Below, piece after piece: positions 2,850-64,000 of a stretch of 64,000 nt of DNA. A model generated the notes under the pieces. It had not been told where the DNA came from. It made no database searches and worked only from the letters and a program-made list of their open reading frames with translations. This DNA is from Eukaryota sp. GEM-RC1 (taxonomy: Eukaryota): positions 992,001 to 1,056,000 of the forward strand of contig JAUFOQ010000006.1 of assembly GCA_040285855.1 (NCBI GenBank), in the 5' to 3' direction. Positions within the stretch are counted from its first letter, which is position 1. Each line of letters starts with the position of its first letter. The position numbers and the translations under genes were made by a program.

Positions 2850-2925
2850 AACACATCTTGTGTTACAGATCTTGTGTTTCAAATGTTGTATTACAGATCT
2901 TGTAAAACACATTTTGTGTTACAGA
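2509..2925. repeat. Minisatellite of 12-14 bp variant units (ACATCTTGTGTT / ACAAATCTTGTATT / ACAGATCTTGTGTT)
   Basis: Directly visible array of roughly 30 units sharing an ATCTTGT/ATGTTGT core, with no unique spacers. Confidence 0.95.
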
Positions 2926-3681: not shown

Positions 3682-3683
3682 AC

Positions 3684-11520: not shown

Positions 11521-11539
11521 CAGTTTTTTTATTTTAAAA

Positions 11540-14115: not shown

Positions 14116-17100
14116 ATGAGTCTCCTAACAGAGCTAGAAACGCTCCTTAAAGGAGATACTTCTTCCATAACTGACTCAGTTTCTCGTCTTCTTACAAGTA
14201 ATCCTGAATTCTTCTGTTTAACATCTAATCAGTTTCAACATTTCTCTCAGATTCTTGTCACTCTTAATTGGTCTTTGTTATCTAATGAAGCATGTTCAGG
14301 CCTTTCTACTATTCTTCTCCGGGTTCTAGACCATTCTCCTGATCCTCAAACCCTTCTTCCCATTCTGATCTCTATCATTGTCAACGCTTCCTGTTCTAGT
14401 AACATCCTAGACTCTTTGTTCTCTAGATTCACAGTCGATCTTCCAACTACACCTCTCTTTCTTTCATCATTACAGGAATTCTTTACTGTTGAGCCTAATT
14501 GTACCACAATATTGCCCTTTGTTGGGGTTTTGCAGAGGATCTTTGCAGAATTTAGTGCTAATTTGACTCGAATTGATGCTTCAATAGTAGCCATATTAAC
14601 GAATTTGTTTGTTTATGTACTCAGATGTTCACACGTTTTCCCCAAATTCTATTCTTTTTTTAAGAAACTGTTGAATTTAACTCAATCATTGAACATCATT
14701 CTCGATGCTTCCTCGACTGTCATGACGTCAACAGTCTTCTACGATTGTCTTATTCTCTTTCTGCGAATGTTTTTAAATAATTCCCTTGGTCTTGCTCCTT
14801 CATTTATTGAAGACGTGGTTCAATTACCAGGAGTGGACTTGTTTAAGAAGTTGTCCACCATCTCAATCACTCAGAAAGGAGATCTTTACAATATCCAATC
14901 AAATTTGATTTCTGCATTGTCCAATCTATTTCTGTATATAGGTGGAGACGTCGAAAATCAATCTTTTGTGGCGTTTTTTAAATTAATCTTAACGGCTGCA
15001 AGTGCTGATAGCGTGTTTCCCAGAAAATTAAATATTGTAACAAATTTCACTTTCTTTGCCCAGAGATCTGAACTGATTACCATTGATCTCTTTTCATTCC
15101 TACTTCTTGTTATCAACTCTTGTTTTGACCAACTTGACGCTCAGGAATTAAACAAAGTTTCAGATTCTTTGCCAAAAATTACTATCAATGTTGGGTCGAT
15201 TTTCTGCTGTTTGCCTTGGAAAAATATTTCCATCATGGAAAAAACAATTGAAATTTTACAGCATTTTTCATTTCATTCACTTTGTGAAATCGTGTCTGCT
15301 TTTTCTACCACATATTTCTCCACACAAACTAAGTCTGTTCCAATGTCTTCCAAAATTTGTTTCAGTTTCTTACATGGTTTTTGTTCAAAGTATTCCACAT
15401 CCATTTCACACGTGTTAACACTGCCTGTCACGTCACCTTTTGTGCCACGTATTGATGGTGTTTGTCGAGAGTATCGTGATGTATTGCTTTCGGATCCGCA
15501 AGCGATGGTAATTGAGAGTGCTCATCATTTTTTAAACTTTCTATCCAAAATTCCGTCGCTTAACTCATCAGACGCTCTTTATCTTGCTACTTCATTGTTA
15601 GAATTGTCACTTAATCCGACTTTCAAATTGTCTATTGATTCTGAACTCGCTTTCCGCTTAGTTCTTGACTTTGTTGCACTAGATTCAGCGGAGTATTTCC
15701 TTCTCTTTGTTACGAGGTTTTTCTATCATAATCAGAATATTGGGACGACATTTTTAAAATATCTCTGTGAATTTAATTTTTCAGATCAAACTGTGTTTGA
15801 TAAGTTGAGTATTGGTACTTTAGCTTCTATTATCCCAGACAATTACCTTTATTACATACGTGTCTCAATTCCAAAATCTAATTTGGAAACTTCTCTTTTC
15901 GCTTCTATAGTTATGAGATTAATTTGTTTCAAGGCCTTGTTTGTTCTACATGATGGGTTGACACGTCAAGAACCTTCCCCTTTTGATTACAATCTATCCA
16001 GTGAGCGTCATTCAGATAATTTCTCTTGTTTTCTTGTTAATTTCACTCAAAATTTGAAAATTTTTTCTGAGTCAGAAGTGCAAAATCAAGATGACTTGAT
16101 TCAATATCTTTTATTACAAGGTTCTTCTTTTAACCAGTTCTTTCAACCTATATTTAAGAGTCATAATGGTAATCCTTCCACTAAACAGCAATTATCACTG
16201 GCGATTGTGCTTTTGACCATTTCAGTTTTTGAAAATTTTGAAATTTGTGATGAATTGGCCAGTCAGCTTGTTCTTGTGATTTTTCAAATATTTTCATCTG
16301 CTCTTCTTCACTATTCTTGTCCTTCTCAAAGTTTCCCCAATCAAGGCCCAAGTGACACCTGTCAGGTTTGTGTGAACGTCATCAAGCCAATCATTTCTAA
16401 TGTTTTGTCTTTCGTGATTGATAATTGTGATTTACTGTTTTCAGTGCTTTCTGTTGACGATTTTCTTTTGATTGTTGGTACTTGTCTTGATTTCTCTATT
16501 AAATCGCTCAATCAATCAAAAATTCCTACTGAATCAAAGAAGTCTCAATTTGACGTTTTTAACTGTAATTATTCACAAATTTCGTCTGTCATTTGGGGTA
16601 AAATTCCCAAGAAATTTCAAAATTCCGAGTTATCCACTTTGAGCTCATGGATAATCGTAGGTTTAGTTTCATCTCACCTTCTTAATCCACAATCGAATCA
16701 CATCAACAGTCAAATTCAAACCATCTTGCCTCTTTTGAATACCACCGTAAAGTCATGTTTCATCACCCTAAATAAGTTGATTGTCTGTGATTGCGATCTC
16801 AATTTTGATACATTACTTTCCTCTTTCGTTCATTTAGATGACGTGCTACAAGAGTTTGTCCTTCAGCTGATGTTCATCCTTATTTCCATTTATAACCATG
16901 ATTTGATCCCTTCCTTCTCCTCCTTCCTTCTCCAACTTAATCTCCCCAATGTCACAGAAACTCTCTCTGGACTATTGACCAATAATGACGAGTTCTGTGT
17001 TACTGTTGATTTAGCTCCTCTCCTTCCCTTAATGTTACCATTCTTCATTGATTATAACAAAGACTTGGTTTTGGAGCTGGTTTCGAAACGTCTGTTGATG

Positions 17101-20100
17101 TGTTGTAGTTCGAACTTGTCTACTTGTACATTTGAAGTTTTCTTTTTTTCTTCAGTTTCTTTTATTTCTAATAGTCCCCTATCAATGGATCCTTTTCTGT
17201 CCTTTTCTAAGGCAAACTTGGTGTTGTTTAACTTGCTCTATCGCCTGCACTCGTCTGCGAGCTCTACTTTGGCTCTATATTGGTCATATTTCACTAATGA
17301 TCCTGCGTGCTACTCCCCAATCAGTTCGTCAGTACAGCTCACTCAGTTCTGTAAAGAGAAACTGGACTCTTATTTGATTGCTCCGTCAACCCAAAATATC
17401 ACGTTACCTACCATATCACGTCACTACCTTCCGTTTTCTTACTTAATTGAATTAGACAAGTCTGAGAGCTTTAGTTCTATTCTTGATCAAGTGTATTTCC
17501 TACAATATTCAATTTTTCAAAGTCAAAAGAAGTTGTCAATTTCCTTAATGTATCACTTTTTGAAAAAGTGTTTGGATATTTTGTTTTTAGTCCAGCGAAA
17601 TATCAGTTCCAACCTCACTTATTGTACTAAGATATGTAAAACTGGTCTATATCTTCTCCAAAAATCTACAATCAATCAAAATTGATTGATCCTCTTTTCC
17701 ACCGATATTCTGTCCTCATCTTCTCATTTGTCTCTCTTTTAGTTGAAAACCAAACTACGTCTCTTCTTAAAGATTTAATATTCTCTTATCCCATCGTTAT
17801 TACTCTCAACTCTGGTTCTTTCTTTTTGCTTCTCTGCTCATTAATCGATTCACCTAACAATTTCTCACCGGATTTTGTGTTTGCTTTGAAAAAGAATATT
17901 TTTTCAACACAAGAGTTGGCTGAAATGGCCTGGAACTTTCCCTGTTGTTATTTGACTGGTCAGACGCTTTCCACGCAGAAGACACGGGATTTTGTTGCAA
18001 AGATTAGGAATTCCTCAGATGTGTTTGGAAATATTTTAAATATTCGCTCTCTTTTGAATGGTATTGGAAATGATCCTGTGGATATGGTTGGTCGATCATT
18101 TAGTCGAGTTCTATCGTCATTTAGGTCTAAATCAACTGAATTTCAATCAAAAAGTTCAAAACTTACCCTTTCTGCCGACGTTTCGACTCTCTTTTCCACT
18201 ATATTTAAACCTTTTATTGATCACATATCACTTCTACTTTCCAAAATTGGAACTAGGCCTTCCGATTATGAAATTTTTAATACTTTTGTTATCGACATTA
18301 AGTCCTTCTTTAATGTACTTTCAGCTGCACTCCAAGCGACAGCTCAGAATAGGCAGTTTTTCATCAATCATTTGAACTTACTGTTACCTCGATTACGAAT
18401 TATTTTTGCTCCCATCCAATCAGCTTGTTCACAACCCCTTGCTATTCAATCAAATGTAATTGATCAGATTCAAGGTTGCTACTTGCCTCTTTTAGGACAG
18501 AATGGGTTGTATCAATCTTTTTTAATTGATTCAGTTGAATCCAAACTTCCTGTTTTGGCTTCTCAAACAATGCCCCGAATTTTAAATATTTCCACAAGTG
18601 CGGGAAAAGTTTCTCTTCTGGTTAAACCTGCTGATCCCTCTGCTGAAATCACCACATCACGTATTCTAACTGTTCTCGATTGTCTTCTTGCCTATTCTGA
18701 ACAATCAAAACTCCATACTCCCAAATTGATCTCCTTTTCTGATCAGGATTCTGAATCCTGTGCCGTAGGATCTTTCTTATTACCAGGATCGTCTTTAACT
18801 AAGTTAGTTGAGCCCTTCATGTCGCCTTTCAATCAAATCAAACAGGTAAAATCAAAGACAAAATCATCATTTGATAGATGGAAAGTGATGTCATGGATTT
18901 ATTCACCGTGTCAGTTCAAAACCCAATCACTTTTTTGGTCGCTTTCCCCTGATTGGTTGACGTCATCTATCACGTCATGGTTGATTGGTCTAGGTGATCG
19001 TCATTTAGGAAACTTTCTTCTTTCAAACGTATCTCAATCTCCTTCCATTTCCGACAAAGTGATTGTAACCCTTGATTTTGGTCAAGTTCTTGATTGCTCA
19101 CGTTTCCTTCCTGTTCCAGAACAAGTTCCATTCCGACTTTCTCCTTTAATTCTTCGTTCCCTGCCTCCATGGAATCGTGGATCTTATCTCAGTAGCCATT
19201 TAGCCTCATCACTTCAATCACTTGCCAAATTTGACAGTTTGATTGCTAACTGTATGTCATCGTTTAAAACTAATCCACCTCTTCTTGCGTTAAAGAAAAT
19301 CAATCAGCTTCGTGGATCACAATCAATTTGTCAATCAGATTTGACTGGATTTTCTGAGCTTTATAACTCACTATTAGTTACTGTCAAGTGTGTCTCTGAT
19401 ACACGTCATCAAATCAAAGAATTCACAAGAAGTCAATCCAAACAGCTTAAGGTTCTCCAAGACTTCAAAGACGTTGCATCTAAGTCCGATCAATCACTGC
19501 AATCAACTCTTTCCCATCTCAACAAGCTACGTGATGACCTACAATCTCTAATCCAATCAATTCCAATCAACGACACGACTCTTTCCACCATTAACAGTCT
19601 CCAATCACAAGGATTGTCTGCTTTATCAACTCTTTGTCCTTTGATCTCTTCTAATGTCCAACTTTCCGTTCCTAAGGGATTACCTCCAGGATTATTTGGA
19701 AATCCTCAGGAATTAATTAAAAATGTGCGAAAACTGATTTCTGAATATCAAACAATTTTGAAAAACTTTGATGGTCGTTATGGAGATTTCAGTTCAGTAA
19801 AAGTGTTGCAACAATTTTTAAGTAATTTTGATGTTTTCAAACAAGCTATCGAAAAAGGTGATACGAATTTTGTTGTCCTTGAATCTTCCAAATTTTTAAA
19901 CTTCATTGCTTGTCAACCAGAGGATGACGAATTGCGCCAACTGCAGCTTTTCTTCAATATTTATTCTGAAATTCGACAATTTCAATCAACCATCAATCAA
20001 CTATCTAATCTTAATAAGTTACCAGCCACTATTCAATCTATTTTTTCCACTTTTGCTCTCGGTTTTACTAAACTTGACGAACCTTCTGCTAACACCATGT

Positions 20101-21578
20101 TTAACGACTTCTTCCAGTTTGTTTCATCAAATCTATCAGTTTCTGAGGATTTCAATTTTGATCATATCTTAAATTTTGTTTTAGCTGTGGAATTTTTAAT
20201 TTTGATTGTAGAGTTTGTTTTTGATTTGAAGAATGATAATGGTTCCAAAGCCACTGTCCGACTTTATTCAGGATTTTCAACATTTGTGCTCAATTATTTA
20301 ATTTGTGGACATTTTGTCACACTCCATCCTACGTTGGAAATATTTAAATCCAAATTTAATTCTGTATTAAATATTCATCTTTTCGACAAGGAAATGAGTT
20401 ACATCTATTCTGATTTAAAGTATTTTGACTTCTCATGCCATGATCAATCACTGATTGATTGTTTTGGTCTCGTCATGGACAAATTCCTCACGCGTTTCAA
20501 AGACTTGGTTTCAAGCCCGAAAACAACCGCCTCCAAATTTTTAAATTTTTCCGCTTTATTGAATAACAGAATAGCTGCCATCAAGAAGAAATATTCTTTA
20601 CTATGTGAGAACTTCATTAAGGAAAGTGAATTGTCCAGTGTATTTATCAAATATGCTTGGTTCTGGGATCGATTCTATGTGGAGGACATTTTATCACATC
20701 ACACATCTCTTCAGAGTTTAACACCACAGTATTTTATTACAAATTTTAATTCTTCGTTAAAAAACCTCGAAAAATCAATGACGAACCCATTGCTCGATTC
20801 TAATACTAAGAATTCAGTAAGTGTCGCTATTTCTACCGTGAGAATTATTCTGCAATTTGAGTCGTTCAGGAATTTCCAAGGTAAAGTTCCTTTATGTGAT
20901 AGTATCCGTGAATTCATACAAAGACTCAGCAAACACGGTGAAAACCAACTAGAAATGATCCAGTATTCATCTCAAGAGGAAGTTCTGCTCAGAATCAACA
21001 AGAATCTTGAAGACTTGACTGGAGTTTTGACCACTCAATCACGTTCACTAGCTTCTTCTACTGATTCGTTTGCTCGGCAATTCGATAACGTTCTAGTTCT
21101 TCAAGAAATCATTGAAAACGAATCGGAGATATTTGAAAAATTCCAAAACATCGTCTCCATCATGTCATCAATCAAAATTGATTCAATCGACGATTGCTTC
21201 GGGCAACTCGGTCAAGTTCTCTCTTGTTGGCCTGACCTCGACAGCCTTATCGAAGCTTTCTCGGCTCTCGTACTGTCACTCTCCTCTGCATTGTCTACAT
21301 TGTCCGAGTCTAAAGTAGACCAAGATTTAGTATCTCAGAATGTTAAAGATTTCATTCGTGGAGATATCTCAGCTTTTGTTGAGAGGAAGTCCTATGCACT
21401 GACTCAGATTAAAAACAGTTTGCTTAAATTAAGAGGGTTAATTACTGAATTACACCATTTGGATGTTCCTCTGGTTGAGTCTTTGGATATGGAAGAAGTT
21501 GCCACGCGATTAGTAGCTAATGCTTCTAGTATTGATGTGCTGTCACAAATGTACATTGGTTGGATGCCATTTTGTTGA
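14116..21578 (+). CDS. PIKK-family kinase, SMG1-like (frameshift near 17680)
   Basis: Helical N-terminus; IGLGDRHLGN, LDFG, LPVPEQVPFRLS; ~780-aa insertion before the FATC (VLSQMYIGWMPFC*), an architecture typical of SMG1. Confidence 0.8.
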
Positions 21579-23883: not shown

Positions 23884-24799
23884 TTACTGAGGTTTCTCCA
23901 ATAGCTTCAATTGACTAAAAGCCAAAGGATTGCCCAAATCAGCAGACTTTTGTAACCAATAATTGGCTTGTGATAGATCTTGCTGAATCCCGCTACCATC
24001 TTTGTAGCATTGACCTACGTTGTACATTGCGTACGAATCACCTAGCTCAGCAGCCTTTCGGTACCACTCTAATGCTTGTGATTTGTCTTGATAAACACCA
24101 TTTCCATCATCATAGGAGACACCAAGATGAACCATAGCTCCACAATGTCCGAGGTCAGCAGCTTTTTGAAACCAATGCACTGCCTGCTTGTAGTCCTTTT
24201 CAATTCCTTCTCCATCGTATAAACAAAATCCGAGGTTATACATTGCCATTGAATCTCCCAATTCAGCAGCTTTTTGATACCAGGAAACAGCCCTTGTTTG
24301 ATCTTTTTCTACTCTTATTGCGTTCTCGTAACAGTAGCCAAGATTGACCATCGCTCTTGAATGACCCAACTCAGCAGCGTTTTTGGAACCAGCTCACTGC
24401 TTGAGCTGGATCTTCTGGAACTCCTTTTGCAAAGAAGTGGCAAAGTCCAAGAGAGAACATTGCATAGCTATCACCCGAATCAGCAGCCTTTTGATACCAA
24501 TAAACAGCCAATGATTGGTCTTGTACAACACCGATTCCGTGTTCATAACAAACACCAAGAGCAGCCATGGCCAGTGCATCACCTAATTCTGCGTTTTCCT
24601 TACACCACTGGATGGTTTTCTCTAAGTTGTTTCTTGCGTTAGGACATGAACAGGCTTTCATGAACCAGTAAACAGCTTGTCTAACGTTCTGTTCAACTTC
24701 ATTTCCTTCAAGAAAGCAGTGCGCTAGACTAACCATTGCAGTTACATCACCACGTTGGGCTGCTTGTTGGTAGGTTTGAATTTTAGAAGTACATGGCAT
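23884..24799 (-). CDS. SEL1-like repeat protein (frameshift near 24372)
   Basis: About 8 repeats of AM.NLG.CY..G.G...D...A..WY.KAA..G. Confidence 0.9.
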
Positions 24800-28179: not shown

Positions 28180-29880
28180 AACTGAAGACCAGTACCAAGA
28201 ACTTCTTGAGCCAAAATTAACCGATATTTTCCGTGCTGATTTGAAGCAATCCAAAATATTTGACTTAGTTGTGATTTCCAGCCATGCTCTAGTCTACGCT
28301 GCAGAAGTAAAACTTGATCAAGGCAAAGGAGACTCGTTAAGTCAAATCATGCAATAATATGAATTATTTTGGGAAAAGCACAGAAATGTATTCACACAAT
28401 TTAAAAATTGTTGTCGTTTTTGTAGTAAAAATCAAAGATTATTTTCTCAAACTCTATAATGTCTAAGAGTGATCAATTGATCCTCTTCTTGAACTGGAGG
28501 GAAGAAGAACAAAACACTTCTGGTCTGAAAGTAGTAACGACTCTCTACAAAATTTGACAACTACAAATTTATCAATGTTTAAAATAATTAATTGAAATCC
28601 TGGAAATTACTTCCCGAATTATAAAATTAACGACCAACTCAAAAAAAAACAAAGTCATCAAAATTAATAACAATTGCTTTTTCTGATGAAATTCATCCCC
28701 TAGAACAATCAAAGTGTAGCCAATGGTAGGAAGTCTTAACAAATCAATCACGATTCTAGCACTCGTATCAAAAGGTCCGACTCTGATACCAAAGGGAATC
28801 ATCATCACAGACCAATCAGAGAAGAGATCACTATGATATAGGAAAGAACATAACCTGATTCACGATCGTTATAGGAAATAAAGAAAGTATAACGTGTGAA
28901 ATCAACAAAACCACTTGGTGAAGAACCAAAACAATTAACAACATATTCTGAAAAGAAAACTCAAGGTCCTCTTGAATTCTTTGATTTTGTGAATCTTTGA
29001 TGGGATTCAAATTGATTTTTGACCTGGTGACGTTAGATCTGGACGCAACGGTTGATCCATAGTTTGTGTTATAGAAGAATCTGTTGAGACCGTACATTAA
29101 TGTTTTTACATTGTAGTTGGGCAAACGTACTGCAGAGTGAAGTAACGTCATCAATCACATCAGAATTTTGACCTGTTTAGACTGATTTTGATCTCGAAAC
29201 ATCAATAATTAGTGGTTTCTGATCAATATCACCAGAAAAAGTGGAATATCAGGAAATTTAGAGCTTCTACCATCATCAACAAAGTAGCTCAATCAATCAA
29301 TTGGATTGCAATCGGCAATCAGAACAGATTGTTTCCAATTGCGTTCCAAAAGACTGTCCAGAATCAACAACATCACCAAGAGAATCAAAATCAAAATCAA
29401 CATAATCACCATCAATCAAACCCTCAATCAAAAGATCCCTAATGACACACTTATGATAATTGATACCAGCAGAGAACACAATTACTGAGAATTATCGAAT
29501 TAAATCAATTACTCTAGGAATATTAGCAAGAAGTCTCTGGTCATTTGTGAAGTGGTTCATGGTGGGGTAAGTAATAGGACCAATGGAGAGAAACCAGCAG
29601 TTGGTGGAAGCATTGTAAGGGGAAGTGACAATGTTCAAAGAGGATGTGACCTGAAGAGATTCTCCTGGGTGAGTGTAGACGGATGATAGAAGTCTCTGAG
29701 TTCAAAAAGAGGGGATCTTGATGAGAGGTTTAGGAGAGTGAAGTCGTAGCAAGAAAAGGAATCAAGAACAGTATTAGTACGAGCTTTGAAAGAGCCAATG
29801 CTTTGGTCTAGATTGAGACGACAAGAAGACTGGTCGTTGGAGGAGTAGATAGTGAAAGAGAAAGAATTGGCTGAAAACAA
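28180..29880 (-). repeat. Dispersed repeat family, copy A (inverted, partial)
   Basis: Reverse complement of ~47470-49190 and ~56250-57605. Includes a degenerate PD-(D/E)XK ORF at 28180-28440 on the + strand. Confidence 0.9.
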
Positions 29881-31890: not shown

Positions 31891-33007
31891 ATGACTTCTA
31901 CCCCACATCTTCTACCTTTATCAGTCTCTCTTCATTCATGGAATGGCGATTTCTCCAGTATGCCGTAATATCTACTTGTTTATTACAGAAATTGCTTTCG
32001 TCGCAACTGGATCTTCTGATGTTTCAATTTATGAGGTCACTTTCTCTAAACCAACTAATGCCGTCTTCATGTACAATCAATCTCTTTCTGTTCATGCACA
32101 AACCATCATTGGACTCGATTGGTGTGGAGTAACTAATCGAATTGTTACATGTTCAGAGGATTGCTCTGTTCGTGTTTGGCATTTCAACGAGACGTCGAAA
32201 TCTTGGATGGAGAAAATTGTACACACAACCACTCGCGCTGTTCTCAGCCTCCATTGGTCTCCTGATGGTCAACATATAGCTCTAGGACATGGTCAAAAGG
32301 CTGTTTCAGTCTGCTACTTCGATGAATCGAACCAGTTCTGGACCGATGCCAACAGCAGTATCAAGAAGCCACACAAATCGGCAGTTACTTCAGTAGCTTG
32401 GTCTCCTAACAACCAACTAGTGGCTTCTGGTTGCACAGATTGTCATGTTCGCGTGTTCAATCCCTCTGCAAAGAAGGTCATGGCTGACGTGATAATTCCT
32501 TCTTGGGTTGATTCCCTGTCCTTTATAACTAATAACGAGATTGTATTCTCATGTCACAACTCTACACTACACTTTGTCACTATAGAACCATATACTCACG
32601 AAGTGTTGACACTTAAAGGCCTTCCAGAGTCTTGCATTCAAGTTGTTAGCCAAGACGTTATCGTTGCAGGGGGATACGATCGTAACCCACATTTGTATAA
32701 AAGATCTGACGATGGTACCTGGAGTTTCTACTCCGCTCTTGACCAACCAAAGTCCAAGGCTACATCAGCTCTAAGTAAGTTAACAGCTAGCTTTGAACAA
32801 GTTGATGTATCTGGTTCTGCCAAAAAGCCCGATTATTCTCTTAATACCATTCATCAGAATACCATCACGTGTATGTCTTTGATCAAGGGACGTGTGCAGA
32901 AGGAAACATCGAAGGACGATGTGGTGTCTGAAACATTGGTCACGGACACTGTGTTGTGTACTACGAGTTCTGATGGCAAGATGGTGTTATGGAAGCTTGA
33001 GTTGTAA
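31891..33007 (+). CDS. ARPC1: Arp2/3 complex subunit 1 (p41, WD40); intron 31958..31988
   Basis: Spliced N-terminus SLHSWNGDFSKIA..DVSIYE, IIGLDW..TNRIVTCSED, VCYFDESNQFW, IKKPHKSAVTSVAW, TIHQNTIT. Confidence 0.9.
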
Positions 33008-33049
33008 ATTCTAATAATAAATTTATTCTTTTGTTCCTAATGTTATACT

Positions 33050-33203
33050 GTGAATTTCATTCCAAATGCATAAGGACATAACCCTTCACATTTTCATGAT
33101 CTCATGAGCAAGCTCGTAAGCAAACTCATGAGCAAAACTCACAGTTTGAACAAATAAATGTCCGCATTCGCAAAGTCTTTTAAGACGAGCTAACTTCATA
33201 GAT
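33050..33203 (-). ncRNA. Putative Fanzor omega-RNA scaffold; guide would extend into ~33030-33049
   Basis: Directly 3' of the Fanzor stop. 13-bp stem CGAAUGC-GGACAU / AUGUCC-(UUAU)-GCAUUUG; hairpin CUCAUGAGU..GCU-UACG-AGC..GCUCAUGAG; GUCU-UAAA-AGAC hairpin; internal GUGAA complementary to terminal UUCAC. Confidence 0.7.
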
Positions 33204-36087
33204 TCAAGATTCCTGATCTTTCTGGTTTACGTGTGAGTCCTTGGGTACATCTTTCTTAGGCTTATTTGGACAAGTTGCTCTGTTATGTCCAGGTTGAAAA
33301 CATATACCACACTTGTTAGGACCTCTGACTTTTGTTAGAGGACGCTTTGCTTTACCCTTACCCTTACTCACAGTCTTTTTCTTAGGAATCTGATCTGTAT
33401 TCCCGCCATCCACGACAGGTGTTGTTTGAGATTTTGGTCTCTCGAGGATGGCAGGTCTACCTTGACCTTGAATGGTTCCATCTACAATATTGTAAATATT
33501 GATAGCAGAATTGAAGTCTCTATTCCAGAGGACATGACATTTAGCACATTCAACTAAGCCCCATGGTGAGACTTTTTTGCTCTTCAATCTTTCTTTCGAT
33601 AATGGCAACTGGTCAGTCCATTCATCATCAAAGTTACGCTGCACAATATTGTCTAATTGATTGTGTTCCATAATTTCCTTTTTTAATTCTTTTCTCTTCC
33701 TTCTGTAACTTCTTCTTCCAATGAGGATCAGTGACTTTTATCCTTTCAGGATTGGAACAGATACCTTCGTCGTTTCTGGAAACACACGCAGAACAACATT
33801 TGCTGGTCTTAAATTCATCAACTAGGAACACTTTAAATCCAAATTTTTTCAATAATTTCCGAATTGAAGCACCTTTCACAGTAGATGCTTTACCTCTTCT
33901 TCGACGAAAAGCAGTGTCGTTCCAGTCTCCATACCCAACAATGACTTCATCTGGGTTACCAAACTGGAGAGCAAATCTGTGAAGCATGTTTTTTCACTTC
34001 GTTCCTTTCTTGAATACTGTGTTAAGCGTCTACGTCTAAACCACTTTTCTTCGTAAATTCCTGCAGTAGTTCTTTGATCAGTAGTGGGTGATCGTAATAA
34101 GGAACAGGTAATTTCTTTACCAAGAACAAAAGCAGAATACTGAGTCAATTCACAAGATTTACTACCTGGTGAGTTAGAGCCCCATTGATCTAAAATTTGT
34201 TGCCCATTTATGTCAATGCGTCTGCCATCTGGAATGTGAATAAATTGGGTAGAGTATTGTTGTAACCGTTCGGACTCAGATAAACGGTGGAGATTATATC
34301 GTCTTATTTTCTTCTCCAGCTTCCTCTTCTTTCTCTTAGCTCTTTTTCTTTCCTTCCTTGTTTTTTTCTTTTCCATGGAGACTTTTTAATATCGGCATTG
34401 CGCTCCCCAGCAGTGTATCTGAATACTTTCCAATTATCACGATTTTTCAACTTGACAGTTGATGGTTTGTCAATAGTGGGTGCGTCTTTCCAATCCTTCA
34501 ATTCATTTTTTAATTTTTTCAAGCTTCCTTTTTTCTTTGATGATTTTGGAGAAATCTTTCTTCTTCTGAGTTTGGCTGATGTATCGAAACCTTCGATTTC
34601 CTTTTCCTCCTTAGATTTTAAAGAAGCACAGTACATCAAATCATGCTGATTAGGATCAATAGCAACAATTCTTTTTGATTTCAAATTTAAGTTTTGAATT
34701 TCTGTTGAACTCAAAGAATCAATGTACCTTTCAGTACTGGTGTGGTCAACCGCTTTCACCTTCTTATGAGGATTTCCTCTCCCATCAAGCAGATCTTTCC
34801 GCATCATCATTAAACTACAGCTAACTCCATCTGTAGAAATAGAACTGTATTTGAAGTCATGAGACAATGACTTTGGAAGACACTTTGGTTTCAAAACTGA
34901 GTGCCAAATATCTTTTCGAACGTCATCAAAGTTACCTTTAATTTCTGATGTATAAACTTCTTTAAACCATGAAGTATCCAACCTAATATGATTAGGAATC
35001 AATGATTTTGTCAGAGGAAAAGGATTATTGGCAGTAACACCAGTACAAGAGTCTTCAACAAGACGTTTCAAATACACTGCATGACTTAAGAATGTCAAAG
35101 GATCTACTTTTTCAGCATAATAGATTGTTTTTTCCATTTTACCTTCAAAAAAAGTAAACAAATAGTTAAAAAATAGTAAACTCAGTCTAGAATTGGGATC
35201 AAGAAACACTTCAACATCTTGAAAATTAATTTTTGAAATTTCCCCATTAATGATCAACTGTCTGACTTCATTAAGCTTTGTACACAACTCTTGTCGTTGA
35301 TTCTTATCAGTAAGCTTGTTAAGTCTATCTTTTTCAGGGTAACCAAATTAAATACCTGAAAAACATATTCGTGAAAGTGTTCACTCATGTTAGTCTTGTA
35401 ATTCGTTATAATTTCAGTAGCCATGTAATGCAATATACGAGATAAACGATGACTACTGGGAAACACAATCCTATCAAGTCCAACAGATCGAGCAGCTAGT
35501 TCTAAACGAGGAATGTAATGCATCAAGAAGTGTTGAGCAAACTGATTTTGAGTTGAGGCCTCATTTGGTTTAGAAGTTATGTTTGTTAACGATTCTTGTA
35601 CAGTCCTAATATGATTCTGATTGTTTACAAGTTTGTGGTCCCTAATCGTCATCATAGACAACACTTGTTCCATTGATTTCAACGTAAAAAAATTCTTCCA
35701 GTATGGCAATTCAATTTTGGCAGTTTGAATTTTAGTCCAAAGGTCAGGTTCAGGTTAAGGTTCATCACTCGCATCTTCAATATTTTCTAATTTAATAGGA
35801 GGAGTAGCAGCATCGATAGACTCTGAAGGTACATCTGTTTCTTCATCAGTTGACTCATCTGTATCAGAATTCATTTCTTCCTTAACAGTTACATTTGGAA
35901 CAGTAGCAGGCAGTAACTTCTGAATGTATTCTAAAATACCTGAATGGTGAAAATTATGAACAAAAAAATGTTTCAAAAAGAGAGAACCACGGACTCTTAC
36001 TTGGTGAGCTCTCTTAATACGAGATTCAATAAATTTAACCTTCGCTTTGGATACAACATTGTCTAGTCGTTTCTTAACCACTTTCAT
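33204..36087 (-). pseudogene. Fanzor (Fanzor1-like) RNA-guided RuvC endonuclease, ~960 codons, with four frameshifts and one in-frame TAA as assembled
   Basis: RuvC-I VAIDPN (~34655), ISTDGVSCSL, VIVGYGDW (~33930), rearranged RuvC-II VDEFKTSKCCSAC (~33815), zinc finger CAKC, RuvC-III WNRDFNSAINI (~33517). N-terminal VVK..L.....I...H....G.LFL. Confidence 0.92.
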
Positions 36088-37480
36088 TGGTGACTTTGAA
36101 CGTAAGGTTTGCTTTTGGGATCCAATAGGTCAGCCAACAAGTACTCAATCAGAGGTAATTGTTGAATTGAGTTCATCAACAATAGCGGTCTTGTCGATTC
36201 CTTGGCCCAAAGTTCATTTACTTTCTCCAAATTTCTTACAAATTTCTTTTTAATCTTATCGACCTTCACTTTGGGATTGTCTGGAACTAAAACATTAATA
36301 CTGTCAATTATGCCATGCAAGTTTTGGACATTATTGATCAATTGAACTTCATCAGGATCAGAGTCATGATTAAGTTCTTCCAAGCGTTTGACAGTTTCAT
36401 TTTTAGAAAAATTATTCATTTCAAGAAAAATTTGAACAACATTTTCCAAAAAACGGCCACCAGTAAAGACATAAAAATTCTTCAGTACAGCATTCAAATC
36501 GAGACTAAAAAACGGACCAAAAGTTGTTTCCTTACACCATTTGTTGAACCAAAAGGGAATATAGGGTTTAAATTCTGGAAAAGTAAACGTTGTATTGATT
36601 TTGAGGACTTGACAACGTGATACAAGAAAGGGAAATGTATCTAAGTGAAAGTCATAACTCACAAACAATCGTGGACAATGTTGAGTAATGAAGGAGATGA
36701 AGTTTTTAAGCATACTGGATTCACTATCTGAAATATGTAAAGTACACAAATCCAAGTTTGTAGTATCAAAATTGCCATGAGAAAATAAATGTTTTTCATT
36801 AAACTCATTGTGATCAATGATCTGGATGGAAATTGATACAATCGGATCAACAAAAGAATCACGTTTAACTTCTAATTGATCTTCAGCTTCACCTTCAACA
36901 GTTTCAATGTCATCATCATCTTGAACAAGTTGAACATTTTTGCCATTAATTCTTTCTTTTTTGGCAAAATCACTTTGAACATGAATTTAACAAAAAGTTG
37001 GCAGATTGTTCCAAAGTAAAGGGGAATTAAGAAAGTCTTGAATTTGTATTTCTTGTTCGATAGGCTCAGTGTGTAGATTTACTTCCATTTTATGGATTTC
37101 TTCTTGAATTGGCGATGGATACGACATAAAGGAGGCCTGTGATTTTGGTGGTAATTCAGATGGTGGTAATTCAGATGGCGATGATAGTTCAGATGGTGGT
37201 ACTTCAGATGATTCCAATGTGGACATACGGCGGTAAGTCTTCCGTATTGGAGTGCCACCAGTTGAAACAAGGGAGCTGATAGTTCTAAATTGATTTCGTT
37301 GAATTAAAGGTGAACCTCGTGGTGATGGAACATCTGAAATTTTGGCTTTACTTTTTTTAGTGCTTAAACCAGTAGATGTTATAGTGCTAGCAAGACGTGA
37401 ACCTGTGAGAGGAATTGAAGTGGTTGGATGTTCTTTACCGGCAGGAGGTTGAATGGGTAACGATGGTACAATAGGATCAT
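36084..37480 (-). CDS. 5'-truncated ORF with a low-complexity N-terminal part and a family-B DNA polymerase-type 3'-5' exonuclease-like domain; possibly fused to Fanzor
   Basis: Single frame with one TAA at 36987: ...DDIETVE...FVDPIVSISI...ISDSESSMLKNFISFITQHCPRLFVSYDFHLDTFPFLVSR...FSLDLNAVLK...LENVV. The stop overlaps the Fanzor ATG (ATGA). Confidence 0.65.
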
Positions 37481-37799
37481 AGTTGTAGCAAACCAGCAGA
37501 GTTGTAGCAAACCTTAGTGTTTTGTTTTGGAGGATAAGATGTCAATGTGATGTATGTGTTGTAGGATGGTTGTACAACGTTGAGTTTATTCATGACATGG
37601 ATGAACACGGTTCACAAGTCTAAGAACGAATACCTGCAAACACGTCTCTATCTTGAAAGAAGCTCAACACTTGATATCAAAAGATGTATGGAATCCATCA
37701 AAGAAGGTATAAGTGAATCAGTTTGGGGATATGTGGTTATGGGGTGAAGAGTTTTTGGGGTAAAATGATTTTGGGGAGTATGCACCCCAAATGAATTCA
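37475..37799. repeat. Transposon terminus copy 2
   Basis: Near-identical to 3351..3681. Confidence 0.9.
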
Positions 37800-38800
37800 G
37801 CAGTAGTGTAATTACGGGGTTTAACTCATACTTGGCAAAATAGCCGAACAAATACCAGGTAACCATTATTCACTTTGCCTTCTTTTCTAAGTAGAATAGA
37901 AAGCATTTCCAACACATTTTTCAACCATTCCAAGGTTGTAATTCCTCAAAAACATCAAGAAGATTGGGTTGTTCTTCATCATCAGACGAGTTTGTGACAA
38001 CAATTTACTCTTCAAGAACACCTACTAGTACTTGCACTTGCAAATCCAATTCATGTTCCAAGAATATATCTGAATCTAGTCAATCATTTAAGATTGGTGA
38101 TTTTGAGTTAACGATCGCCAAAACTAGTAAGCTCCACGGTAATTACTTTGGGCCTCTTCTAGTTGTATCACTTGATTCGAAATCTTCTGTGTCACTGAAG
38201 AACCTGATCACTGGATATGTTAGTTACAGATGGTATCCTCGTTGTCTTCATCAAAAACACCTTCGTTCTCGAGATGAAGTACATCAACACGAGATCTTTG
38301 ATCATCCCATATGTGCGTACTCCTACTTCCATTGGTAATTAATTAGTGCGTTATGTTTCAAAAATAGGGACAACACGTAGAAATAGATACAATTGAACAG
38401 TACATCTTTATCCAAAGATTGTTCTGGTACCATTTTATTCATAAAAATACAGAAAACACAGCATTAATTCAAAAAAAATACAAAAAATACAGTATTTATC
38501 GAGACTGAGAAAATACAAAAACACAAAAAAATACAGTATTTGTATTTTCCAAGTATGGTTTAACTCTTACATCGGAAGGTGATGACCACGTCTGAATCAG
38601 TCTGATTCAGACAGACTTGAACTATGCCAAAGGGTGTGACTTGATGTTATATAAATGTTACGATCCGCATTTACTATTCCCTTGACGATTTCGTTCAAAT
38701 AATCTTACTTTGAGAGATATTAAAACAGTAAAAGGTTAACGGGTAATCATCTGAGCAAATGACAAGACTCTTACAATACTTAATAAGCACTAGCCACCTC

Positions 38801-44993: not shown

Positions 44994-45728
44994 ATTATGT
45001 ATCGGAATTGTATGAACTTTCTTTGTCTTCCATAAACTAAAACATATAATTACAATTGATTTAAAAATGCGTAAATACTTCTAACATTATTCTAATCCGA
45101 ACTACTTAATAACTAATGCACCCACACTACACGCACTCTAGACGTCACACAGTATTATGCAGTACATAGTTTATCTCCATTGTTGATGTGCTATTCGTTA
45201 AAACGAGGCTTCTTCTTGTTTGACAAAACTCTGTCTGAAAGACTCTTTTGTTCACTGTTTACGTTCCCTGTACAAGGAAGAGTATGATAAGTGTGGTGTA
45301 TAAGACTTCGTATTGTACATCATGACTCTTCACTACGTCAGTTGCTCCAACACTGTTAGCCAAAGGTAATTGTATAGTCTCCAGTAGGATAATTTCCATT
45401 TATAAACTCCTTTTACCCTCTTTCATCCATATCAAGGTATCAACACATCACTATTAAAAAAGTGAATTTGAAGACGAATTCTTCTAGAAAAATGGCTCTC
45501 GAGACTTTCACAGAGCTATTGTAAAGTTTTCAATTAATGCAATTTTGTGTATTGGGTCATAGTAACACTGTTTTTTGGAGCCCTATTTGGAATTGGATTA
45601 TCATTATGTTACAACCATAGTTTTCAATTAATAGCTTCATGTCTCAGTAATTCCTAGAATTATTAGAGGTACATGAAACATCCATCTTCAATTTGTACAT
45701 TTAATGAGTATATATTATTTGTAATAAT

Positions 45729-48700
45729 TGTCACGCAAAGTACATGTTTGTGGTAAAGTGATCAAACCCACAATCAGAGAAACTGATCTAGTTATCCTTA
45801 GAACAAACACCGCTACGGTTCAAACAAACATCTTGGCGTCTTCTTGGAACATCAATAATCAGGGGTGGGGAAAATTGGATTGGCAATCCAATATTTCCAT
45901 TATATTAATATATATTGATACCAATATACAATTGGTAATCTAGGTCGTGTATTGTACATTCTGTTCTTAATTGTTATAGTGCACTATATTGGTAGTCTTG
46001 TTTTCATATTGATTTCACACGAAACTATATTCTTCTATATCTGTTGGTATTTTCTCGTCTATTGCTACTATGAGAAAGCTATCAAATATGGATTTGATAC
46101 TGTTTTTTCGTGAACATCGCTTTGGGAAAGGAGAATATTAGCAGTTATGTTAACCTCAATTTTTTTTCCAGGGCGTTTCTCCTGCATAAAAAAAGTCGTT
46201 AAGGCCTGCAGTTGTAATTGCACTACAAAATCACACTTTGGGACTTCCAGATTGTCTACACAATTTGTGATCAACATTGGTGTGCAGCAAATGAAGAAAC
46301 TAGTGATGACGAGTGAGTTTGTCATTAGTACCTATGAAGAATTAAACCATAAAATGACGTGTCATTTGTTGTTTCAAAATGTAACATAACACTTAAATTC
46401 ATCAATGAGAATGTTTCAAATCAGGGCCTGGAAAAATTGAATTGCCAATACAATTACTTGGACACATTGGTATGAACCATTGATTGGCTCAACATAAATC
46501 ATTGAAACATTGATTGATATAATGTTCAAACATTGCAACATTGGCCAATTGTATTTTGCGAATTATCCTATTTGACTCAACACTACAAATCGCACCACCA
46601 ATATGCAGCTGATGTAGATAGTCGTATTAACATGTTCTTTGCGAACAAAATACATAGATCGTATGATTTGGCTGTTCTACTACTAGTAGTAGTGGTAATA
46701 CTTGAAATATTGGGCCAATATCACTCATTGAAACATCGTTTCGACCAATATCTAACATTCAAACATTGATTGGGCCGATATCTAACATTCAAACATTGAT
46801 TGGTTTCATTTGAAACATTGTCATTGGCATTTAAATACCAATCATTGACATTGGCAGCCTGGTTTCAAATGTCACCTTGTCAAATGCTCATCAATCTTGT
46901 CATGTCACTCTATCTACAAATTCTACAACATCAAACCCAAGGACGTATTTCCTGAAGTCTTGTTCATGCCTTTTGTTGTTAATGACAATGTCGCTTCCTT
47001 CTCCGATGATTGCTTCTATTCTGTTGTCTGCATCGCATCAACCATTCTGGATTCAATGCTCGATAGTACTCCCCAGTATTTTGGTTCCAAACCCAAAGTT
47101 TCCTTGTCAGTTTGAATTAAGAGATTGCTGTCCAACAGCCAAAGTACCTTAGAATGTGCTTCTCTTGCACTTTTCTACCTCAACAAACTCCAAAAGTCCT
47201 GTCCCCATCTTCGATTCACTGGAAGTCTATATTCGTCGTTTGTATATGGTTGCTTTCATGCTATATATATTTGAACTCAATAGAGCTAATCCTGTCGCCT
47301 TTCTACCATCCTTCAATCTCTTTCATGTACAGCTACAGACTTCAATGTCTCTTTCTTCACTGACTTTTCAGTTGATGATGTCTACCCACAATCTTCAGTT
47401 TCTTTTCCCAAGTCTTTTGGGATGATGACTCTGCTTCGAAATGATCTTCTGAATCTAACTACTTAAATTCTGGGACTTTTACAACCACAATCTACTCCTC
47501 CAGACCAGTCTTCTTGTCGTCTCAGTCTAGACCAAAGCATTGGCTCTTTCAAAACTCGTACTAATACTCTTCTTGATTCCCTCTCCTGCTTTGACTTCAC
47601 TCCCCTAAACCTCTCATCAGGATATCCTCTCTATTTGAACTCAAAGACTTCTCTCATCCGTCTACGCTCACCCAGGAGAATCTCTTCAAGTCACATCCTC
47701 TTTGAACATCGTCACTTCCCCTTACAATGCATCTACCAACTGCTGGTTCCTCTCCATTGATCCTATTCCTTACCCCACCATGAACCACTTCACAAATGAC
47801 CGGAGACTTTATGGTAATATTCTTAGAGTGATTGATTTAATTCGATAATTCTCAATCACAGTATTTTCTACTGGTATTAAGTATCATAAGTATGTCATTA
47901 GGGATCTTTTGATTGAGGGTTTGATTGATGGTGATTATGTTGATTACTATTTTGATTCTTCTGGTGATTGTTGTTGATTCAGGACAGCTTTTTGGAACTC
48001 TATTGGAAACAATCTGTTCTGATTGCAATCCAATTGATTGATTGAACTACTTTGATGATGGTAGAAGCTCTAAAGTCCCTGATATTCCACTATTTCTGGT
48101 TATACCGATCGGAAATCACCATTTTTTGATGTTTCGAGATCAAAATCACTCTAAACAGGTCAAAATTCTGATGTGATTGATGACGTTACTTCACTCTGCA
48201 ATTCGTTTACTCAACTGCAATGTAAAAACATTAATGTACGGTCTCAACAGATTCTTCTATAACACAAACTATGGATCAATCGTTGCGTCCAGATCTAACG
48301 TCACCAGGTCAAAAATCACTTTGAATCCCATCAAAGGTTCATAAAATGAAAGAATTCAAGAGGATCTTGAGTTTTCTTTTCAGAATATGTTGTTAATTGT
48401 TTTGGTTCTTCACCAAGTGGTTTGTTGATTTCACACGTTATACTTTCTTTATTTCCTATAACAATCGTGAATCAGGTTATGTTCTTTCCTATATCTTAGT
48501 GATCTCTTCTCTGATTGGTCTGTGATGACGATTCCCTTTGGTATCAGAGTCGGACCTTTTGATACGAGTGCTAGAATCATGATTGATTTGTTACGACTTC
48601 CTACCATTGGCTACACTTCGATTGTTCTAGGGGATTAATTTCATCAGAAAGTCGACATTGTTTTTAATTTTGACGACTTTAGAGAAGGTAAGTCCTATTA

Positions 48701-49223
48701 CGAGTTTCAACCTTCATCACAATCTCAATTTGAAATTTGCATTTCAGGAAGTAATTTCCTGGATATTGAATTTAACTCATATCAATTAAATACTTTAAAT
48801 TCGATTTTTTTATTGTTTTCAAACATTTTATATATTGGTAATTGTCAAAATTTTGTAGAAAATCGTTACTACTTTCAGACCAGAAGGGTTATGTTCAACT
48901 TTCTCTCTAGTTCAAGAAGCTCTTAGAATGTGAGAAAATAATCTTTGATTTTTGCTAAAACAACGTGTCGAACACAACAATTTTTAAATTGTGTGAATAC
49001 ATTTCTGTTCTTTTCCCAAAATAATTCATAATACTGCATGACTTGAGTTAATGAGTCTCCTTTGCCTTGATCAAGTTTTACTTCTGCAGCGAAGACTAGA
49101 GCATGGCTGGAAATTACAGCCAAGTCAAATGTTTTTGATTGCTTAACATCAGTACCGAAGATATCGGTTAATATTGACTCAAGAAGTTCTTGTCATTGTT
49201 ATTGCTTAAGTTTTGCAACATCG
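45729..49223 (+). repeat. Dispersed repeat family, copy B
   Basis: Colinear with 54941..57636 and inverse to 28180..29880. Confidence 0.9.
46422..46861. mobile_element. ~440-bp TIR insertion within repeat copy B
   Basis: CAGG...CCTG ends; flanking direct repeat (G)TTTCAAAT; absent from copy C (empty site near 55645-55660). Related fragment near 25400-25470. Confidence 0.75.
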
Positions 49224-53901: not shown

Positions 53902-54940
53902 GCAATATTTTTTAGAGTACTTAAAATGACTTCAGATAACTTTGTTATTGGTATTTTGTTATATATAATTTCTCAAACGAATGATAAAAAGACATGAAGG
54001 CATCAACCAGTTCAAGGCGTTCTGATATATAAACAATGAAGCATATGTAACTGTCAATATATCGAGATCACTTGGTTGATTGGATTTTTGTATTTCTAGA
54101 AACATTCTACTAGTACTGTGTCATATAAACAGATCCTACTACAGGTACATGTCTACAAATATCTTCAAAAATAATTACATTTGGCAAATAAACTGACAAT
54201 TGTGGAAAAAAGACACCATAATTATTATTTGAAGTGTCCGGAGTATCGAGAACCGATCAGTAAATTGATTATCTCAAAGGTGATTCAACTGGTTCAACTT
54301 TGGAGTGAAAGCCATGTGGTTTAAACATGGAATAACAAGAATCACGTATACCAAAACGAACATGAATAACTGAACGTAGTAAAATTAAAAACGACAATTA
54401 GCTATATGACAAAAACCCCATTAACTGGACAAGAGCAAGTTGAAAAGTTTAAGAAATTTACAGGCCAAATAGCCAATCGAATATGCATTTTGATCATCCA
54501 GGCTCCATCAGACAAATACAATCAAAACACCTGTGGAATTTGAAAAATAAATCCAGAAGGTACACTATTACAAAGGTCAATTAAAAAGCAGCGAACTTGG
54601 GACTATTAGTTTTAGCAAAGCTAATACGATTAAAGTCTAAGAGTTCAAACTCATTAGTCAATATATTTTGTAGTTTACATACAAGAGATGGTGGAGATGA
54701 ATTATTTCTTGAAGGAGTCTCCTTTAAGTGAGCAGGTAACACAGATTCCCACATTTCGGGAGAAAAAAAAGTTCGGGTCATGTCAATATCAAATTGAACA
54801 ACCACAGTGTTGTTCAATTACTGGGTTCATGTCTCAGGAATTCCGACAATTACGACTACTGCAGTAACTCCTGACTTTACTAGAGGTATGTGAAACAGCG
54901 ATCTTCAAATCGTACACGAGTGTTTAGTATCAATAAAAAG

Positions 54941-63890: not shown

Positions 63891-64000
63891 GAGTAGTTTT
63901 TAAGCATCACTGGTATTTTTGAAGAAGCATGGTATAAGTGTAATTCCGAATTTTCGTTGACTGGTATTTCTGTAATAATCCCTAATAAATACACTCAACA

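What the first reader, a model, noticed from the sequence alone, without database searches (positions are those of the whole stretch)
36084..36986. Family-B polymerase-type 3'-5' exonuclease domain directly upstream of, and probably fused to, Fanzor
Seen: extending ORF 36084..36755 upstream gives DDIETVE...FVDPIVSISI...LHISDSESSMLKNFISFITQHCPRLFVSYDFHLDTFPFLVSRC...SLDL...LENVV. This parallels the Pol delta/epsilon proofreading domain (ExoI DIE; DPVIQI; E..LL..F..F....PD...YN..FD.PYL..R). ExoII is degenerate and no polymerase domain follows. The stop overlaps the Fanzor ATG (CACCAATGAAAG), and adding one A gives ...SHQMKVVK, the same kind of junction that splits the PIKK and PIN genes in this window. 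Inference: an exonuclease-Fanzor fusion in which the extra domain could trim or bind cut DNA ends. I know of no description of this architecture, but cannot search.
Basis: partly seen in the sequence, partly recalled or inferred. Interest (0 to 1): 0.9.

Follow-up and report, generated by a model that had tools for sequence, protein, structure and literature searches.

The report
Fanzor with built-in proofreading exonuclease
This is a broken copy of a jumping gene from single-celled protists whose intact relatives join an RNA-guided-type DNA cutter (Fanzor) and the end-trimming part of a DNA polymerase in one protein, likely a natural cut-and-trim enzyme.

Summary
The fusion is real. 36087-36986(-) is a family-B polymerase exonuclease domain (Pfam above cut-off; fold closest to Pol delta), and no polymerase domain follows. 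Of 15 near relatives from Skoliomonas sp. GEM-RC1 that reach the junction, 14 read straight into Fanzor1. A second Skoliomonas species has six unbroken 1394-1494 aa proteins: 2A-like leader, linker, exonuclease with all four catalytic acids, complete Fanzor1.

The missing A lies in the run at 36113-36116, not near 36087. 'DDIETVE' lies in a disordered loop; the true ExoI reads H-x-Q, so this copy's exonuclease is predicted dead.

The window copy is 5'-truncated (no 2A or Ulp1 protease, which full copies carry). It has five frameshifts at A-runs and two stops, partly likely assembly errors.

Most likely role (inferred, about 0.4): after the RNA-guided cut, the exonuclease trims the mismatched 3' tail so that homologous repair can copy the element back. 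Its inactivation in one lineage shows catalysis is dispensable there. My paper searches found no description of this fusion. Guide RNA, element ends and activity are untested.

The parts
37475..37802 (+). 334-bp dispersed repeat that abuts the 5' truncation point of the element; not part of the ORF
   Evidence: 95% identical to 3351-3684; protein homology to full copies stops at 37475
36996..37475 (-). S/P/T-rich linker of the fusion ORF; full copies have a 2A-like leader and a Ulp1/C48 protease upstream, absent here
   Evidence: tblastn of P0001-P0018, mostly 86-96% identity; PF02902 in 11 of 19 relatives; no 2A or HWGL motif in any window frame
36987..36989 (-). in-frame TAA where relatives have Leu (FCLIHVQ)
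36117..36995 (-). family-B (Pol delta-like) 3'-5' exonuclease domain, predicted inactive in this copy: ExoI H/Q at 36983-36975, ExoII T at 36638-36636
36113..36116 (-). A4 run, one base short of the frame read by relatives: the exonuclease-Fanzor junction
33438..36112 (-). Fanzor1 core in pieces; RuvC acids present: D 34657-34655, E 33816-33814, D 33518-33516; C4 zinc finger. Breaks: TAA 35757-35755, frameshifts at A-runs 35334-35330, 34387-34383, 33994-33989, 33684-33679
   Evidence: the 35330 break is pinned by relatives P0026/P0037, the last three were placed by eye at the A-run nearest the frame change
33204..33437 (-). C-terminal tail with a CCHC zinc knuckle (33311-33270), not present in the TZLM3-RCL copies
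33040..33260 (-). expected place of the omega-RNA and right end of the element (inferred from Fanzor biology; not shown)
   Evidence: folds at z -1.89, 7 of 200 shuffles as good: weak; no relevant Rfam match

Best explanation
The locus is a truncated, broken copy of a multi-copy element of Skoliomonas-type metamonads whose single ORF fuses a family-B polymerase 3'-5' exonuclease domain directly to a Fanzor1 nuclease, and the domain likely serves to trim, or in this copy's lineage only to hold, the 3' DNA end left by the predicted RNA-guided cut. SHOWN: one ORF of 2A-like leader, (Ulp1 protease in GEM-RC1), linker, exonuclease domain, Fanzor1, with 25 residues between the ExoIII Asp and the strand taken as the first of Fanzor; all four exonuclease acids and three RuvC acids in six TZLM3-RCL proteins; ExoI D/E and ExoII D lost in this copy's subfamily. 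INFERRED: (1) 2A skipping removes the ~36-aa leader and leaves exonuclease and Fanzor on one chain. (2) An omega-RNA from the right end guides cutting of the empty site. (3) The TAM-side end then carries about 16-17 nt of target sequence that does not match the filled allele, where the element follows the TAM. (4) The tethered exonuclease removes that tail so repair synthesis can copy the element back (restorative homing). (5) In the GEM-RC1 lineage catalysis was lost and the fold is kept as an end-binding or structural module. My odds: fusion 0.97; active exonuclease in TZLM3-RCL 0.7; this copy's domain inactive 0.9; tail trimming as the main role 0.4.
For: Read-through in 14 of 15 GEM-RC1 and 8 of 8 TZLM3-RCL proteins that reach the junction. 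Six unbroken ORFs, 90-95% identical to each other, with FDVET / GYNCDKFD / YCxND and GIDPN / VNEY / NRD. PF03104 passes its cut-off in all six and PF07282 in five, P0057 at 26.2 against 26.3. The read-through sequence equals the window DNA plus one A with no residue missing, so no called intron makes it. The family profile finds only Fanzor1 structures (E 2.6e-47 to 9.8e-29) and Pol delta first for the exonuclease (E 8.7e-12). The two isolates are the most divergent of the genus, 88% SSU identity (PMC11603281 passages). GEM-RC1 subfamilies at 34-42% identity to this copy keep the domain in frame. Only one 2A motif per protein, upstream of the domain. SpuFz1 cuts the non-target strand after base 16-17 (PMC10432273 passage). 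Pol delta proofreading can resect up to 40 nt from an invading 3' end, and non-homologous tails trigger heteroduplex rejection in yeast (PMC10868807 passages). Restorative homing is shown for TnpB; for Fanzor1 the review lists only sequence-specific cutting (PMC13565253 passages).
Against: No activity, guide RNA, element end or transcript was seen. All GEM-RC1 subfamilies retrieved lack most catalytic acids yet spread, so exonuclease catalysis is not needed for propagation. No full-length GEM-RC1 protein was found: a search of 609-2000 aa proteins with the window's REC/RuvC-I piece gave 2 hits, none from this subfamily. The slip at 35330-35334 is shared by the window and all 4 subfamily proteins that reach it, so it could be inherited. 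Two gene models (P0010, P0019) start at the internal MKVVKK Met. The exonuclease diverges faster than the Fanzor part (41% against 57-59% between subfamilies). Conserved acids in copies 90-95% alike are weak proof of selection. A 3'-5' nuclease could also destroy the 3' ends that homologous repair needs. The AlphaFold model of the Fanzor part failed (pLDDT 35), so reach from the tether to the cut end is untested. ExoIII in this copy is not pinned: MAFFT gives Leu, VIA range ends point to S273-Q276, and a Y-x3-D (YLLAD, 282-286) lies about ten residues further on.
Confidence: 0.5

Rival explanations
1. The domain is mainly a non-catalytic clamp or structural module: it binds single-stranded or frayed DNA, or stabilises the Fanzor N-terminus, and the acids in TZLM3-RCL are an ancestral leftover.
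For: GEM-RC1 subfamilies lost the acids in different ways (H/Q, E/K, E/R, D/K at ExoI; T or L at ExoII) but kept the domain in frame. 19 columns are invariant among 9 aligned sequences, including the W, GPF, Y-F-GR-L-N block.
Against: All four acids and the ExoIII Tyr are intact in 7 of 7 TZLM3-RCL proteins that cover the whole domain, and the divergent P0024 keeps ExoI D/E and ExoII D.
Confidence: 0.22
2. Cut and chew: the exonuclease erodes both ends to stop re-ligation and force deletions or DNA destruction, as engineered TREX2-Cas9 fusions do, for example against empty alleles or invading DNA.
For: Intact DEDDy motifs on the same chain as an intact RuvC. Engineered exonuclease fusions exist (search listing and abstract start only: PMC13370227).
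Against: Deleting the target gives the element no copy; no viral or defence context seen; isolated proofreading domains are usually weak and non-processive (recalled).
Confidence: 0.12
3. The domain is a captured Pol delta fragment carried as a passenger by a gene-capturing element (Helitron-like) with no role in Fanzor function.
For: The same ORF swaps other modules freely (Ulp1 present, doubled or absent; zinc knuckle present or absent). Ulp1 is a known Helitron-captured domain (PMC11417382 passage). 5'-truncated Fanzor1 copies are known from Helitrons (PMC3627910 passage).
Against: It is the one N-terminal module found in both species and in every GEM-RC1 subfamily retrieved, in frame and abutting the Fanzor core, at 31-42% identity.
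Confidence: 0.1
4. The exonuclease matures the 3' (guide) end of the omega-RNA rather than acting on DNA.
For: DEDD folds include RNases (lower VIA rows, Z 7-8); the omega-RNA needs a defined 3' end (recalled).
Against: All top sequence and fold matches are DNA-polymerase proofreading domains (Z 12.6-15.5).
Confidence: 0.06

Closest known systems
Fanzor1 (SpuFz1, PpFz1, GtFz1)
   Same: RuvC D/E/D, E six residues before the C4 zinc finger, RD after it; profile hits to 8gkh, 9cf0 and 9cer only; multi-copy, no transposase in the ORF
   Different: About 1310-1370 aa after the 2A against 400-700 aa quoted for Fanzors (PMC10432273 passage); N-terminal PolB exonuclease, 2A-like leader, optional Ulp1 and zinc knuckle; ~80-aa insert within the zinc finger; D-to-TS spacing 279-281, just over the published 125-275
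DNA polymerase delta proofreading domain (family B, DEDDy)
   Same: Fold and ExoI/II/III order; best hit by profile, Foldseek and VIA
   Different: No polymerase domain; ~45-aa acidic insert after ExoI; fused to an RNA-guided-type nuclease; acids lost in GEM-RC1-type copies. Host delta versus giant-virus PolB origin is unresolved (ASFV and T4 are within 1 Z unit)
Cas2-DEDDh of type I-E CRISPR (8fyc) and engineered TREX2-Cas9
   Same: A 3'-5' exonuclease tethered to a DNA-processing protein to trim ends; 8fyc DEDDh matches at Z 10.1
   Different: Cas2-DEDDh trims prespacers in adaptation (recalled) and is DEDDh; TREX2-Cas9 is artificial (search listing only)
2A-like peptides of APE-type non-LTR retrotransposons (L1Tc, Ingi, CR1, L2)
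   Same: GD[V/I]ExNPGP near the ORF N-terminus (PMC3708506 passages; motif in 19 of 42 proteins, one with L for P)
   Different: Here it precedes a protease/exonuclease/Fanzor ORF with no reverse transcriptase or APE; the motif alone does not prove skipping (same paper)

Membership tests
Fanzor1 | RuvC triad D, E, D with E about six residues before the zinc finger | tested here: met
   window IAIDPN-type D, VDEFKTSKC, NRDF; six TZLM3-RCL proteins; criterion from PMC13565253 passage
Fanzor1 | D-X(125,275)-[TS]-[TS]-X-X-C4 finger-X(5,50)-RD motif | tested here: inconclusive
   all elements present in order; D-to-TS spacing 279-281, 4-6 over the published range; finger-to-RD 5
Fanzor1 | closer to Fanzor1 than to Fanzor2/TnpB | tested here: met
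   profile A2 hits three Fanzor1 structures at E <= 1e-28 and nothing else under E 0.6; the profile includes 11 stand-alone relatives; P0025 alone hits SpuFz1 at 6.8e-7; no tree built
Fanzor1 | omega-RNA from the element's right end, TAM, RNA-guided cleavage | not testable with these tools
   no DNA of other copies, no reads; fold z -1.89 only
Family-B polymerase exonuclease domain (fold) | DEDD/RNase H-like fold with PolB profile match | tested here: met
Active DEDDy exonuclease, window copy | ExoI D-x-E, ExoII N-x3-F/Y-D, ExoIII Y-x3-D | tested here: not met
   ExoI H-x-Q, ExoII D to T; ExoIII position uncertain
Active DEDDy exonuclease, TZLM3-RCL copies | ExoI D-x-E, ExoII N-x3-F-D, ExoIII Y-x3-D | tested here: met
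   7 of 7 proteins covering the domain; sequence motifs only, ExoII aligned to Pol delta, no structure or assay
Whole family-B DNA polymerase | polymerase (palm/fingers/thumb) domain after the exonuclease | tested here: not met
   no PF00136 in the window ORFs or relatives scanned
2A ribosome-skipping peptide | GD[V/I]ExNPGP motif | tested here: met
   relatives only; deleted from the window copy
2A ribosome-skipping peptide | skipping activity | not testable with these tools
   needs a translation assay
Ulp1/C48 protease (GEM-RC1 copies) | Pfam match and His/Asp/Cys triad | tested here: met
   PF02902 above cut-off in 11 of 19 proteins; HWGL, D, NDCG motifs; a second type has Ser for Cys
Helitron or other named transposon superfamily | transposase, termini, target-site signature | not testable with these tools
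   no transposase in the ORF; no terminal repeat found around the copy; no genome held

The most novel reading that the evidence does not exclude
Skoliomonads carry a natural cut-and-trim RNA-guided nuclease: a 2A-processed Fanzor1 that captured the Pol delta proofreading domain and uses it to remove the non-homologous 3' tail of its own cut, so the element completes homing with less host help, and whose exonuclease was later silenced in one lineage.
Probability: 0.35. Interest if true: 0.9.

Novelty: new variant of a known kind. Interest (0 to 1): 0.77.

Why it matters
The biological role of Fanzor cutting is stated as unknown (PMC10432273 passage). An end-processing enzyme fused to a Fanzor points at what happens after the cut, and it gives a clean test: an intact fusion, a one-residue dead mutant, and a naturally dead sister lineage. 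It is also a natural counterpart of engineered exonuclease-Cas fusions, and six unbroken sequences are ready to express. It extends Fanzor1 to metamonads (0 papers held both terms) and puts a 2A-like peptide and a Ulp1 protease on a Fanzor ORF.

Tried and rejected
No genome is held for the window. No sequencing run was listed, which is no evidence either way; read laying could not be used.

Relatives outside Skoliomonas: none among 1.84 billion representatives (8 hits at E <= 0.001, all from the two isolates). Metagenome scans with the window ORF and P0058 found none. Viral scans gave none with P0025 and one ordinary whole PolB with alignment A1. The region search of P0025 added one more TZLM3-RCL cluster and one ordinary PolB. 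These searches are word-limited, so absence is weak. The Atlas search with P0025 gave no usable hit.

The AlphaFold model of P0033 failed (pLDDT 34.6) and was not searched. Rfam gave one chance snoRNA match. No convincing terminal inverted repeats. One search was a crude break-mapping script (substitutions stopped it early) and was redone. In one search one look-up motif was mistyped, so its window D-to-T spacing is void; the RuvC-II position was read.

Rejected: an intron at the junction (no residue is missing in the read-through); Fanzor inserted into a host PolB gene (no polymerase remnant, multi-copy, intact fusions); DDIETVE as ExoI. Programmed frameshifting is unlikely for the junction (14 of 15 read through) but not excluded for 35330-35334. 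Earlier scan findings: nothing.

Literature: 10 searches; no title or abstract start described this fusion. 'Exonuclease' occurs 0 times in the main text of PMC10711439, PMC10530073, PMC3627910, PMC10432273 and PMC13565253 and in 2 supplement files of PMC10530073. That paper's fig. S1B of extra Fanzor domains is a figure I could not see; other papers' supplements and subscription journals were not searched.
Full report
OBSERVATION. The frame 36084-36986 on the minus strand is open for 300 codons. It is a family-B polymerase exonuclease domain by four routes: Pfam PF03104 above its cut-off, the ESM Atlas (0.96), and an AlphaFold model (pLDDT 61) whose best solved matches are Pol delta by Foldseek and VIA-align (Z 15.5). 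No polymerase domain follows. Downstream pieces match the TnpB/Fanzor zinc-finger family weakly on their own and align in order along full Fanzor1 relatives.

THE FUSION. A search of longer proteins gave four hits, all named Eukaryota sp. GEM-RC1, three at 95-97% identity. Their clusters hold 19 proteins. The exhaustive search added five more and the Fanzor-side search one more family member plus a stand-alone relative; a region search added a further cluster. In all I examined 31 GEM-RC1 and 11 TZLM3-RCL gene models. Both are Skoliomonas isolates, free-living anaerobic metamonads and the most divergent pair of the genus (PMC11603281, passages). Of the 15 GEM-RC1 proteins that reach the junction, 14 pass it in frame: 8 from this copy's subfamily, 3 from a subfamily at 41% (one, P0004, ends a few residues later) and 3 from one at 34%. 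P0001 has the same slip as the window. Of the other 16, most end before or start after the junction; P0010 and P0019 start at the internal Met. In TZLM3-RCL 8 of 8 proteins that span the junction read through, and six (P0025, P0032, P0052, P0056, P0057, P0058; 1394-1494 aa) are unbroken through all catalytic motifs.

ARCHITECTURE. Full copies read: short leader ending in GD[IV]ExNPGP; a Ulp1/C48 protease in GEM-RC1 only (PF02902 in 11 of 19); an S/P/T-rich linker; the exonuclease domain; Fanzor1; and, in the window, a CCHC knuckle. The motif fits the 2A consensus known from non-LTR retrotransposons (PMC3708506, passages) and occurs once per protein, upstream of the domain, so skipping would not separate exonuclease from Fanzor. 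In TZLM3-RCL 25 residues separate the ExoIII Asp from the strand I take to be the first of Fanzor (assignment by eye against P0027). The family profile matches only SpuFz1, PpFz1 and GtFz1.

ACTIVE SITE. TZLM3-RCL copies have FDVET, GYNCDKFD and YCxND in 7 of 7 proteins that cover the domain. The window does not. Five polymerase structures begin their alignment with model residue 1 one position before their first ExoI Asp (residue numbers recalled), so the ExoI positions are His and Gln, as MAFFT also gives. The ExoII Asp is Thr. ExoIII is less sure: MAFFT puts Leu253 there, the VIA range ends suggest Ser273-Gln276, and a YLLAD at 282-286 lies one helix later. Loss of three acids is enough to predict inactivity (established DEDD chemistry). 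Other GEM-RC1 subfamilies lost them through other substitutions; P0017 and P0023 keep the first Asp only. The RuvC triad is intact in the window and in all six full copies.

STATE OF THIS COPY. Homology to full copies stops at 37475, where a 334-bp repeat begins that recurs at 3351-3684. No 2A or Ulp1 motif exists in any window frame, so the copy is 5'-truncated. It has five frameshifts and two TAA stops. All five shifts fall at A-runs of 4-6 bases, which cover 5.5% of the element; two are pinned by relatives and three placed by eye, so no p-value is claimed. Among 18 subfamily proteins, 5 show a clear terminal frame switch, all at runs of 6-7 A or T; 3 gave weak switches; 10 showed none in the last 30 residues, 5 of which share a window slip further up. 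The assemblies of the named isolates were nanopore with short-read correction (bioRxiv 2023.05.03.539051, passages and section 5). Homopolymer miscalls in repeats are therefore a likely cause of many breaks (inference). The PIKK gene in the window also shifts frame across A-runs. Real decay cannot be separated from error without reads, and the 35330 slip is shared by all five copies that reach it.

MECHANISM. Shown: the architecture and the residues. Inferred: TnpB restores its transposon by cutting the empty site and provoking gene conversion, and Fanzor is proposed to do the same (PMC13565253 and PMC10432273, passages). SpuFz1 cuts the non-target strand 16-17 nt from the TAM. The TAM-side 3' end then ends in target sequence, while the filled allele has the element's left end after the TAM, so the invading end carries a non-homologous tail. 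In yeast such tails provoke rejection and need clipping, and Pol delta proofreading can chew back up to 40 nt (PMC10868807, passages). A tethered delta-like exonuclease fits that step. Against it: GEM-RC1 lineages spread without catalysis, and geometry is untested because the Fanzor model failed. I give tail trimming about 0.4 as the main role, a non-catalytic clamp 0.22, cut and chew 0.12, passenger 0.10, RNA trimming 0.06. How the element moves is unknown: no transposase lies in the ORF and no ends could be defined. Ulp1 capture and 5' truncation recall Helitrons (PMC11417382 and PMC3627910, passages; section 12 of the latter), which is a lead only.

NOVELTY. Ten paper searches and term counts in five Fanzor papers found no exonuclease-Fanzor fusion (calls listed under Tried and rejected); one figure listing extra Fanzor domains could not be seen. 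PMC11423790 and PMC6338049 were seen as passages only and did not describe it. The proteins are deposited as hypothetical. Fanzor1 and PolB exonucleases are both well known, so this is a new variant of a known kind. The family appears confined to two isolates of one genus in the collections searched.

VERDICT. Real, conserved across two species, intact in one; the window copy is a dead-exonuclease, truncated member. Interest 0.77.

Noticed in passing
window 3351-3684 and 37475-37802: A 334-bp repeat (95% identical) ends two bases before the ATG of an XPG/PIN-like gene in one place and abuts the Fanzor element's truncation point in the other; both copies start just after GATCA.
   Followed up: partly
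window 3651-5840 (+): XPG/PIN-like gene split over three overlapping ORFs; the first shift lies across T-runs; weak XPG_I match, E 0.007.
   Followed up: partly
window 14116-21578 (+): PIKK gene (PI3_PI4_kinase, FATC) in two ORFs that overlap across an A5 and an A4 run at 17660-17681; long extension between kinase and FATC.
   Followed up: partly
window 23884-24799 (-) and 9146-9170 (-): Sel1-repeat gene with a one-base excess next to an A5 run; SNF2 helicase split by what reads as a ~35-nt GT-AG intron.
   Followed up: no
window 817-2925 (+): C-terminal part of a Pif1-like helicase followed by a tandem array at 2504-2925; possibly a Helitron remnant.
   Followed up: no
window 28196-29865, 45611-49223, 54798-57636: Three diverged copies (77-89%) of a multi-kb repeat with few long ORFs; unidentified.
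   Followed up: no
window 61526-63906 (-): MULE transposase and SWIM finger fragments with short direct and inverted repeats around 62265-62378 and 63037-63116.
   Followed up: no
window 10881-11528 (-) and 40130 (-): An ORF with no Pfam match that recalls a restriction-like endonuclease end of a non-LTR retrotransposon (recalled resemblance); a separate CCHC knuckle at 40130.
   Followed up: no
P0021, P0003, P0004: A GEM-RC1 subfamily carries two tandem Ulp1-like domains, the second with Ser in place of the catalytic Cys; P0003 joins that domain to a window-type exonuclease, suggesting recombination between subfamilies.
   Followed up: partly
window 31895-33007 (+): WD40 gene (looks like Arp2/3 subunit ARPC1; name recalled) ends about 200 nt from the Fanzor stop, tail to tail, so any guide would come from its 3' region.
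   Followed up: no
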